From Callorhinchus milii (lineage: Eukaryota): a DNA stretch of 64,000 bases. Of the stretch, positions 33,501-35,321 are shown in pieces. The notes below the pieces were generated by a model that ran no database searches, was not told the origin of the DNA, and saw only the letters and a program-made list of their open reading frames with translations. The stretch is taken from NCBI RefSeq assembly GCF_018977255.1, contig NW_024704745.1, forward strand, positions 76,198,001 through 76,262,000, written 5' to 3'. Positions within the stretch are counted from its first letter, which is position 1; every line of letters starts with the position of its first letter. The translations under genes were made by a program, and so were the position numbers.

Positions 33501-35321
33501 AACATTAGCAGAAACATTTTCCTCTTTTCGTGTAGTGCAGAGGTTCTCAAACTGTAGGACGGACCTCCCAAACCCCACCTCTGCCTTTCTAGACTGCAAC
33601 CCTGAATTGCACTACATTGTACAGCGAGGAGACAGGCTCACTCCTCCCTGTGATGGGGTGGGACTAATGGATATTGTACAACATGATCTGAAGTTGTTTG
33701 GTGTTGTGATTTCCCAAAGTGTTTGAGCAGTTTGGTTTTGGCTGCTGTGATTTGTGCTCTTTTTGGGCAGAATCTGGCACGGAGGGGGCTTTGTGAAGTC
33801 GAAATGCTGCTTTTCACCCTCATATTCTTATTGTATCTGTATTGATCGGACCCCTCCTACTTTGTTGCTCGTTTTCTTGTGGAGTATAGGGGGGGGGGGT
33901 TCGGTTCTTTGTGTTGTCTTCGTGAACCGTGGAGAGGTGCAACTGTGTTTTTTTGTTGGCTTAGGTTGGCTCACTGTGACAACGTCTGAGGACCCCTGGT
34001 GCTGTAACATCCACCTGAACAGCCAGACGGCACCTCGGATTAACCTCTCATCTGAAGGACAGCGTCTCCGACAACAGCGCTCCCCCAGAGCTGCACTGGA
34101 GCGTCAGCCTAGACCGATGATGGGTCAGGAGTGTCCAGCCGAACGTTCGCTCAGCTCTGAGCCTGTTCCAAATCACCGCCTTGTTGCCGCCGAGCCGAGA
34201 TGCCCGTTCTGCAGCTCGGGTGTTAACCTTCGATTGTCCAGCGCTCCCGACCTGAAAAGCGCTGTATAAACGCAATCTGCTGTTGTGTTGCGGCCACAAA
34301 TGAAGAAATATTGCATCAAGAAGACCCCTCGGTTCGATTCCCGGGCAGAGCGAAACCTTCAGCCGGGTTTCCTTACTCCACGCGCCTCTGTTTACCGAGC
34401 AGTACAACAACAACAACAAGATTACATTTATAGAGCGCCTTTCACGTCGGGAGGACGTCCAAGGCGCTGTACAGTTGGGTCAGGACCCGAGCATTGGGGG
34501 GGGAAATGGTCAGGGTGAGGGGAGGGAAGGGAGGGAGCGAGGAGGGGGTAGAGAGTCGAGAGGGGGAACCTGGTTTGTTAGTCAATCGGAGGATCACTTA
34601 CTGGGGGTAATATTCCCTTCAAATTAAACTGATCACTTCCACCCACGACTGTTTGTGGGGGACGCCGCCGTGCGCCATCGGCTGCCGCGCTTCTCCCGCG
34701 AAACATAACAGTCACTACGCTCGGCAGCGTGCGCCGCGAAGCGCTTGCGGGAGACGTCTCGAAGTCGTGATCGGGCGCCGTGTCGAGCGCGAGGGCCGTC
34801 GTCGTCGGGTCCGGGCCACGGCCCTTCGCCGGGTCGGGGGGGGGGGAACCGGGGGGGACGCGCCCTCTCCTCTCTCCACATACACGCTGCCCGGACCCGC
34901 TGAGGGCTCCCAGTGGCTCTCTCTCTCTCTGTGTGTGTTTCTGCTTCAGATTTCCAGCGTCTGCGGCAATTTTACGTTTATTATTATTAATATTAATTAT
35001 TATTATTATTATTATTACTACAAGAGGTCAGAACAACATCAGCCCCGCGGCCTCCCCCCCCCCACCCCCCCCCCCCCCTCCCTCAGGGCCTGAAGGTCAC
35101 TGCGAAGGCCTCGAAGCCTCGGGTTTTCCTGGGCCTCCGCTCCCCGGGGTGGGGGTGGGGGGGACGGGGACAGACTCACCCGCCTTGAGGGGCGGCCGGT
35201 GGTTCAGGGCGTTGTGGAGGAGGGACGAGGTCCAGCCCAGGAGGCCGAGCCACACCGTGTTCCTGTTGACGATGGCGGGAGGCGGGAGGCCCCGGGCCTC
35301 GGGCGGCAGCACCAACTGCAT
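30529..35321 (-). CDS. NDUFC2: NADH:ubiquinone oxidoreductase subunit C2, 111 aa; coding exons 35321-35180, 31949-31806, 30578-30529
   Basis: Spliced translation MQLVLPPEARGLPPPAIVNRNTVWLGLLGWTSSLLHNALNHRPPLKAG-IHRQILFTSVAWYIGYYLTKLENYKKAKVEHEMFEYIRLHPEDFPEK-EKKKYAEILEDFVPIR*; GT-AG introns; 142+144+50=336 nt; AATAAA on minus strand at 30376-30381. Confidence 0.95.
31806..31949 (-). CDS. NDUFC2: NDUFC2 exon 2
   Basis: TTTTAAG| acceptor, |GTACA donor; GIHRQILF...YIRLHPEDFPEK. Confidence 0.95.
32780..33345 (-). mobile_element. CR1 LINE 3' fragment nested inside an older plus-strand CR1 tail
   Basis: TRGHSLKI..KRSRGEVRRNVFTQQVVGIWNDP...FKRELDRYL; LEYCVQFWAPYL on the minus strand; (ATTCTATG)n tail. 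Other CR1 pieces at ~1-130, 4085-4370, 15640-16090, 39680-40080, 48500-48630. Confidence 0.85.
34630..34810 (+). mobile_element. SINE 3' half with extreme AT->GC divergence
   Basis: Colinear with the SINE core and tail; the (ATT)n tail now reads (GTC)n. Confidence 0.8.
35180..35321 (-). CDS. NDUFC2: NDUFC2 exon 1 (coding part)
   Basis: ATG at 35321; donor G|GTGAGT; LPPEARGLPPP motif. Confidence 0.93.

What the first reader, a model, noticed from the sequence alone, without database searches (positions are those of the whole stretch)
34630..34810. SINE in the NDUFC2 CpG island rewritten by almost purely AT->GC substitutions
Seen: the consensus CAGTCAATTCACTTTACAGTATATTCTGTGAAGCG reads CAGTCACTACGCTCGGCAGCGTGCGCCGCGAAGCG here. 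GATAAGGCGCTATATCAAATGCAAGGATTATTATTATT reads GATCGGGCGCCGTGTCGAGCGCGAGGGCCGTCGTCGTC. By hand, about 40 weak->strong changes against about 1 strong->weak. Both A->G and T->C occur on the same strand, which argues against ADAR editing of the RNA intermediate. The SINE upstream of the gene (35707-35860) shows the same bias more mildly. Known: GC-biased gene conversion at promoter/CpG-island recombination hotspots, as in lineages lacking functional PRDM9 targeting. Inference: a strong, long-lived promoter hotspot; the abundant SINE could serve as a genome-wide gBGC reporter.
Basis: partly seen in the sequence, partly recalled or inferred. Interest (0 to 1): 0.7.

Follow-up and report, generated by a model that had tools for sequence, protein, structure and literature searches.

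The report
GC-rewritten SINE in NDUFC2 island
A copy of a very common short repeat in the CpG island of the NDUFC2 gene has had over a third of its A/T letters replaced by G/C and almost none the other way, and repeats beside other CpG islands of this genome show a milder form of the same shift; the likely cause is recombination-linked biased gene conversion, a process known from dogs, here in what is probably a chimaera fish.

Summary
The SINE copy at 34561-34810 lies in NDUFC2 intron 1, inside a CpG island. At sites shared by all subfamilies it has 32 of 84 weak-to-strong changes, 1 of 56 strong-to-weak and 1 of 140 GC-neutral (background 4.8%, 12.8%, 2.2%). Contigs of two other runs match it exactly. 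It is not a dispersed GC-rich subfamily: 25 changes are not shared with other copies. In 30 other island-like tiles, SINE equilibrium GC falls from 0.65 near the island to 0.30 beyond 2.5 kb, with no change in neutral divergence; 30 non-island tiles are flat. GC-biased gene conversion at a promoter hotspot is the best explanation, but no recombination map or allele frequencies were tested. Two additions: seven changes and a G-run insertion are shared with copies found almost only near scaffold ends and on small scaffolds, across subfamily backgrounds, suggesting conversion between copies. PRDM9 status is unresolved: both host copies have broken finger exons in this assembly, and nine PRDM9-like contigs are almost certainly lamprey DNA. 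The scan noted the same SINE pattern at six other islands of this genome. New member of a known kind.

The parts
34561..34794 (+). 5'-truncated long-form SINE copy, strongly shifted from A/T to G/C; the shift rises towards the gene start (3 of 16, 12 of 37, 17 of 31 weak sites in thirds)
34795..34810 (+). SINE tail: the family's ATT repeat reads as GTC repeat
34655..34666 (+). Five-G run plus A>G block shared with copies near scaffold ends and on small scaffolds
34001..35600 (.). CpG island: five SINE-masked 400-bp windows with GC 0.56-0.63 and CpG o/e 0.65-0.89
35180..35321 (-). NDUFC2 first coding exon (47 codons; Pfam NDUF_C2, E 6e-8); the SINE lies in the following intron
35178..35360 (-). 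Stretch covered by contigs of two probably-RNA runs, which go on into other sequence at the splice donor; the longer ends at 35360 (weak hint of the 5' end)
35701..36025 (-). Full-length short-form SINE upstream of the gene, mild and borderline GC shift
34325..34474 (.). Two SINE fragments (head on +, tail on -) next to the focal copy with little or no shift (3 of 31 and 0 of 22 weak sites)

Best explanation
An old SINE copy in the CpG island of NDUFC2 intron 1 has gained G/C at over a third of its A/T sites and lost almost none, likely because repeated meiotic recombination at this promoter island has favoured G/C alleles during mismatch repair (GC-biased gene conversion). Shown: the one-way excess, an ordinary neutral clock, the local peak, and the same gradient at other islands. 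Inferred: that the island is unmethylated in the germ line and is a stable recombination hotspot, and that fixation bias rather than mutation causes the shift. A minority of the changes (7 of 32 and a G insertion) were probably copied from, or inherited with, GC-shifted SINE copies of the kind found near chromosome ends.
For: Focal copy 32/84 W>S, 1/56 S>W, 1/140 neutral; a simple model gives B about 5.4 (3.4-9.1). After dropping 18 columns shared with distal copies and 3 doubtful columns, 22 of 72 remain (P 9e-16 against interior long-form copies, 2e-7 against distal ones). W>S goes up, S>W goes down and neutral changes do not rise, which points to a fixation bias. The other 67 copies of the window have GC* 0.33, and most C4 tiles at 72-81 Mb give 0.28-0.48 (one 0.59), so the effect is local. 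In 30 island-like tiles of 60 chosen by an NRF1-type motif: within 750 bp W>S 96/1048, S>W 35/700, GC* 0.65 [0.53-0.76]; at 2.5-5 kb 169/4012, 280/2842, GC* 0.30 [0.25-0.34]; neutral rate 0.018 and 0.019; the same in 26 interior tiles and without shared sites. The 30 non-island tiles are flat, 0.34 to 0.29. A young short-form copy beside another island has 12/65, 0/44 and 0 neutral (L156). Small scaffolds, where more recombination per base is expected (recalled), give GC* 0.54.
Against: No recombination map, allele-frequency spectrum, methylome or outgroup was available; run X19 of another organism did not cover the locus. Islands were called from SINE-masked GC and CpG content, so any GC-raising process links the two; the motif tiles are not annotated promoters and only 14 tiles have a copy within 750 bp. 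Two SINE fragments 100-250 bp away show no clear shift (probably younger). Some sites are far more frequent in distal copies than uniform gBGC predicts (one site 57/83 against 1/34 while the mean rises about 3-fold). CpG-making changes are about twice as frequent as other W>S changes in distal copies, which CpG selection or reduced decay would also give. B rests on a simple model with pooled background rates.
Confidence: 0.72

Rival explanations
1. GC-biased conversion between non-allelic SINE copies is the main force: recombining copies are overwritten in short tracts by GC-richer copies, so the focal copy is largely a mosaic of donors.
For: All 22 alleles enriched in 116 distal against 38 interior long-form copies are W>S, plus a G insertion (42/82 against 0/35). 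The G-run-plus-G block occurs on long and short backgrounds. On the short background 6 of 6 five-G copies carry the linked G and C. Among 40 four-G short copies on C1-C5, distal ones have the linked G in 23 of 29, interior ones in 1 of 11 (P 9e-5), unselected distal short copies in 1 of 12. All four allele combinations occur at the tested site pairs.
Against: 25 of the focal copy's 32 changes are at sites not enriched in distal copies. An old-family C allele is not enriched on long backgrounds (2 of 56 distal, 1 of 39 interior). Part of the distal set are neighbours of loci picked for GC-rich variants.
Confidence: 0.1
2. The copy belongs to a GC-rich SINE sublineage whose source elements were already GC-shifted and which inserts or survives mainly in GC-rich chromatin.
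For: Shared alleles and partly nested linkage among distal copies. Long-form copies are denser in distal and small-scaffold tiles (46 in 20 tiles) than in the interior set (59 in roughly 60 tile-equivalents). Some copies carry many shared alleles and almost no private change (L162).
Against: The variant is not dispersed: on C1-C5, 40 of 40 matches of one marker lie within 4 Mb and 21 of 21 of another within 7 Mb of a scaffold end. It crosses subfamily backgrounds. No other copy is more than 82% identical to the focal one among the 39 best hits, and 22-25 changes are private. It can explain at most the shared quarter.
Confidence: 0.06
3. Selection for G/C or CpG content (island maintenance, factor binding) fixed the changes.
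For: The copy lies in an island near a housekeeping promoter; CpG-making sites changed in 10 of 26 against 17 of 58 others.
Against: Most changes do not make CpG; the same shift marks repeats on small scaffolds and chromosome ends away from promoters; dozens of separately selected sites in 230 bp of intronic repeat is implausible (inference).
Confidence: 0.06
4. Local mutation bias in unmethylated, transcribed DNA (less CpG decay, more A/T-to-G/C mutation) with no fixation bias.
For: CpG decay is lower near islands (47/312 against 346/1194); site-specific hot positions suggest context effects.
Against: Loss of methylation does not raise W>S rates; here W>S is 2-fold (islands) to 8-fold (focal copy) higher while neutral changes are not; no strand asymmetry.
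Confidence: 0.05
5. RNA editing of the SINE transcript before insertion, or an assembly error.
For: None beyond the excess of A>G.
Against: T>C is as common as A>G and 5 changes are transversions; contigs of other runs match the sequence.
Confidence: 0.01

Closest known systems
PRDM9-independent recombination hotspots at CpG islands with gBGC: dog (Berglund et al., PMC4350167, passages); placental mammals (Joseph et al., PMC11161765, abstract and section 12)
   Same: Excess of weak-to-strong substitutions centred on CpG islands, read as raised equilibrium GC that decays within 1-2 kb.
   Different: Read here from SINE copies against family majority, not from species alignments or polymorphism; outside amniotes; recombination and methylation not measured.
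Coexistence of PRDM9 and promoter-like hotspots in corn snake (Hoge et al., PMC10369914, abstract)
   Same: Promoter-like features attract recombination signals in a non-mammal with small chromosomes, whatever the PRDM9 state.
   Different: No PRDM9 binding sites or crossovers tested here; the host PRDM9 copies look interrupted in this assembly.
CmiSINE (SINE2-1_CM, SINE2B-1_CM) and SacSINE1-CM of Callorhinchus milii (Luchetti et al., PMC5499810, abstract and part 2 of 5 of the text)
   Same: Three age classes with a tRNA-like head and a shared 3' end of about 160 bp; my short, long and old classes have neutral divergence 0.006, 0.018 and 0.036, the same order.
   Different: Not aligned to the published consensus sequences, so the names are inferred; the part read does not treat base-composition bias.
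Non-allelic gene conversion between transposable element copies (review PMC8232201, passages)
   Same: Variants shared between dispersed copies in blocks, across subfamily backgrounds.
   Different: Here the shared alleles are all weak-to-strong plus a G insertion and are confined to chromosome ends and small scaffolds; transfer is inferred, not observed.
GC-rich chromosome ends and small chromosomes of cartilaginous fishes (Yamaguchi et al., PMC10620051, passages)
   Same: Higher GC at ends and on small chromosomes, with gBGC named as a suggested cause.
   Different: That work describes composition; the direction of substitution and the island-scale peak are measured here.

Membership tests
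gBGC footprint of a CpG-island hotspot | Weak-to-strong excess with strong-to-weak deficit | tested here: met
   32/84 and 1/56 against 0.048 and 0.128
gBGC footprint of a CpG-island hotspot | GC-neutral changes not raised | tested here: met
   1 of 140, 3.1 expected; 0.018 near islands against 0.019 far
gBGC footprint of a CpG-island hotspot | Both transitions and transversions, no strand bias | tested here: met
   27 transitions, 5 transversions; A>G 12, T>C 15, P=0.70
gBGC footprint of a CpG-island hotspot | Signal peaks at islands and decays within a few kb | tested here: met
   GC* 0.65, 0.41, 0.32, 0.30 in 30 island-like tiles; flat in 30 others
gBGC footprint of a CpG-island hotspot | Derived G/C alleles segregate at higher frequency | not testable with these tools
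   Only contigs of four samples, no outgroup cover
gBGC footprint of a CpG-island hotspot | Raised recombination rate and germline hypomethylation | not testable with these tools
   No map or methylome; lower CpG decay near islands is only indirect
Lineage without functional PRDM9 | No intact KRAB-SSXRD-SET-zinc finger gene | tested here: inconclusive
   C84 copy: KRAB E 0.021, below cut-off; SSXRD-like by eye, no Pfam hit; SET best hit PRDM9 E 1e-24; finger exon frameshifted. C40 copy: stops in finger exon. Breaks may be assembly errors. PMC5519329 passages: KRAB-SET, no testis expression found; PMC8892340 passage: counted as complete
Dispersed GC-rich SINE subfamily | Diagnostic alleles linked across the element and spread over the genome | tested here: not met
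   Markers confined to scaffold ends and small scaffolds; mosaic linkage; 22-25 private changes
ADAR-edited retroelement | A>G on one strand only | tested here: not met
CmiSINE / SINE2B-1_CM | tRNA-like head and 3' end of about 160 bp shared with sister families | tested here: inconclusive
   Head-bearing relatives and a shared 3' core seen; head judged tRNA-like by eye; the focal copy lacks it
CmiSINE / SINE2B-1_CM | Sequence match to the published consensus | not tested
   Consensus not fetched; the paper's supplements were not opened

The most novel reading that the evidence does not exclude
In this cartilaginous fish, recombination-rich DNA (chromosome ends, microchromosomes and promoter islands) drives concerted GC-ward evolution of a several-hundred-thousand-copy SINE: besides ordinary allelic gBGC, GC-biased conversion between non-allelic copies spreads specific G/C alleles and a G insertion across subfamilies, only in those compartments, in a lineage whose PRDM9 may be dead.
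Probability: 0.35. Interest if true: 0.6.

Novelty: new member of a known kind. Interest (0 to 1): 0.33.

Why it matters
It extends the CpG-island gBGC signature to what is probably a cartilaginous fish, and shows that SINE copies can map past recombination at sub-kilobase scale from a single assembly. It also gives two cautions: subfamily-variable and shared hot sites must be removed before counting, and PRDM9 status in this assembly is confounded by foreign contigs. If the shared alleles are spread by conversion between copies, repeat subfamily trees and ages in recombination-rich regions would be distorted. The single locus is not surprising by itself.

Tried and rejected
An ETS+YY1 pattern gave only 5 sites and a longer NRF1-type pattern 13; the tiles came from the first 100 listed of 262 matches (60 taken, mostly away from scaffold ends). 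These motif names are recalled. I first read the multi-copy SSXRD+SET+finger genes on nine small contigs as host PRDM9 and rejected this: all 25 protein hits are lamprey at 95-100% identity and 131,300 bp of these contigs hold 0 SINE copies. A genome-wide Pfam KRAB search found nothing and its control did not ring either. No RNA holder on record was listed; X3 and X7 are RNA by guess only. Run X19 of another organism did not cover the locus, so no outgroup. Hairpin-templated correction as source of the shared block: an unshifted copy folds an 8-bp stem there (z -1.6), the focal copy z -0.05, and copying the stem partner would give a different sequence (by hand); not adopted. Two translations in the wrong frame. 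L293 was fetched and not analysed. My note says 24 enriched alleles; one search lists 22. Paper searches (listings only) showed no title or abstract start on island gBGC or biased conversion among SINEs in chimaeras; the library lacks most subscription papers and no supplements were opened.

Full report
Setting. The window is G000:C4:76198001-76262000 of a 991.5-Mb genome; C4 is 81.18 Mb long, so the locus is 4.9 Mb from a scaffold end. The gene is NDUFC2: 35321-35181 on the minus strand gives 47 codons matching Pfam NDUF_C2, and contigs of two probably-RNA runs cover this exon and leave it at the donor. SINE-masked windows from 34001 to 35600 meet CpG-island thresholds. The organism is probably a chimaera; this rests on the likeness of the SINE classes to those in PMC5499810 and on earlier scan notes, not on a direct test.

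Observation. The copy at 34561-34810 is a 5'-truncated long-form SINE in intron 1. Against the majority of 22 long-form copies its 3' part shows 43 weak-to-strong, 2 strong-to-weak and 2 A<->T differences. The family has short, long and old classes that share this 3' core, so I counted only columns invariant across 298 background copies. There the copy has 32 of 84 W>S, 1 of 56 non-CpG S>W and 1 of 140 neutral changes; 103 copies in 20 fixed interior tiles give 288/5994, 542/4229 and 0.022. Sixteen bases that the aligner had trimmed were added by position. The copy ranks 2nd of 339. Contigs of runs X1 and X2 match 138 and 124 bases exactly and one of X3 covers 205 bases with 3 differences. A>G and T>C are equally common and five changes are transversions, so editing is excluded. 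The upstream copy is only borderline (7/107, 2/88).

Is it a subfamily? The best genome hits share several alleles with the focal copy and lie mostly on small scaffolds or near scaffold ends. Two marker patterns have 180 and 99 matches; on C1-C5 all 40 and all 21 lie within 4 and 7 Mb of an end (100 of the 180 were listed, including all on C1-C5). Comparing 116 distal with 38 interior long-form copies, the 22 alleles enriched distally are all W>S, and a G insertion is found in 42 of 82 against 0 of 35; part of the distal set are neighbours of loci picked for such variants, but fixed tiles alone show it too (21 of 33 against 2 of 53 at the strongest site). The focal copy carries 7 of these changes and the insertion; 25 of 75 weak sites changed elsewhere, 22 of 72 after three doubtful columns are dropped. 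A dispersed subfamily is therefore rejected, and most of the shift is private.

Is it tied to islands? Of 60 tiles centred on an NRF1-type motif, 30 were island-like after masking SINEs. In these, equilibrium GC of SINE copies is 0.65 [0.53-0.76] within 750 bp (22 copies, 14 tiles), then 0.41, 0.32 and 0.30 [0.25-0.34]; W>S doubles, S>W halves and neutral changes stay at 0.016-0.019. The result holds in 26 interior tiles and without the shared columns. The 30 other tiles are flat. A young copy by an island on C4 has 12/65 W>S and no other change, so the process also acted recently. The other 67 copies of the window give 0.33 and tiles along this end of C4 mostly 0.28-0.48: the focal signal is a local peak on a weakly distal background.

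Mechanism. More W>S, fewer S>W and an unchanged neutral clock on both strands is what GC-biased gene conversion predicts (established theory, recalled; PMC4350167 passages and PMC11161765 abstract). A simple model gives B about 5. Loss of methylation alone explains the lower CpG decay but not the W>S gain. The steps from this pattern to meiotic breaks at an unmethylated promoter are inferred; recombination, methylation and allele frequencies were not measured, and islands were defined by composition, which is partly circular.

What uniform gBGC does not explain. A few sites rise 10- to 30-fold in distal copies while the mean rises about 3-fold. The G-run-plus-G block appears on long, short and youngest backgrounds. 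On the short background 6 of 6 five-G copies carry the linked G and C. Among the 40 four-G copies on C1-C5 (100 of 130 matches listed), distal ones carry the linked G in 23 of 29 and interior ones in 1 of 11, against 1 of 12 unselected distal short copies. This suggests transfer as a block between copies in recombination-rich regions. Against it, one old-family C allele is not enriched and long-form copies are denser distally, as a restricted sublineage would give. This stays open.

PRDM9. Pfam searches found SET and SSXRD hits on nine small contigs, which look like complete PRDM9 with variable fingers. Their SET exon is 95-100% identical to lamprey proteins in all 25 hits and they lack the host SINE entirely (0 in 131,300 bp), so they are almost certainly foreign. 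Host-like copies with SINEs nearby lie on C84 and C40. C84 has a weak KRAB match (E 0.021), an SSXRD-like stretch without Pfam support, a SET exon closest to PRDM9 and a frameshifted finger exon; C40 has stops in its finger exon. The breaks may be real or assembly errors, and only the best candidates of the search were scored. Papers disagree for C. milii (PMC5519329 and PMC8892340, passages). Island hotspots also occur with intact PRDM9 (PMC11161765, PMC10369914, abstracts).

Verdict. Real, well above chance, and best read as a strong local case of island-centred gBGC (confidence 0.72). The scan noted the same pattern at six other islands of this genome (unchecked notes). It is a new member of a known kind; interest 0.33. 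The shared distal alleles are the most novel thread.

Noticed in passing
G000 contigs C668, C737, C936, C969, C1096, C1143, C1226, C1362, C1419 (L175-L182, L191-L211): Multi-copy PRDM9-like genes with SSXRD, SET and variable finger arrays, 95-100% identical to lamprey proteins and free of the host SINE: almost certainly lamprey DNA inside this assembly.
   Followed up: yes
G000:C84:77900-85300 (L272, L273, L292) and C40:252400-253900 (L275): Host PRDM9-like copies: C84 has KRAB-like, SSXRD-like and SET exons and a frameshifted finger exon; C40 has stop codons in the finger exon.
   Followed up: partly
Ends of C1-C5 and small scaffolds (L002-L030, L131-L150, L212-L271): SINE copies share specific G/C alleles and a G-run insertion across subfamilies, only in distal and small-scaffold DNA; on C4 the signal is stronger at the start (1.5-2.5 Mb) than at the far end.
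   Followed up: partly
L156:6077-6293 (C4, about 12.59 Mb): Young short-form SINE beside a CpG island with 12 of 65 weak-to-strong changes and no others.
   Followed up: partly
window 52887-53068: Young SINE next to the GC-rich patch at 52.2-52.6 kb with 5 of 65 weak-to-strong and 1 of 44 strong-to-weak changes (P about 0.02, uncorrected).
   Followed up: partly
window 27877-28245: SINE copy with a long-form 5' part and the youngest type of 3' end: a mosaic copy.
   Followed up: no
window 34001-36000 and 50001-54000: Runs of six or more G or C are concentrated here (9, and 16, against 0-3 per 2 kb elsewhere); they are also about three times as dense on small scaffolds as in interior tiles.
   Followed up: no
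window 14601-15200, 28601-29400, 59801-60400: Further island-like patches after SINE masking; genes not identified.
   Followed up: no
G000:C3:38061499 and C33:594456 (L173, L174): Two PR-domain hits with identical scores and coordinates in the profile on different scaffolds, perhaps a duplicated or redundantly assembled segment.
   Followed up: no
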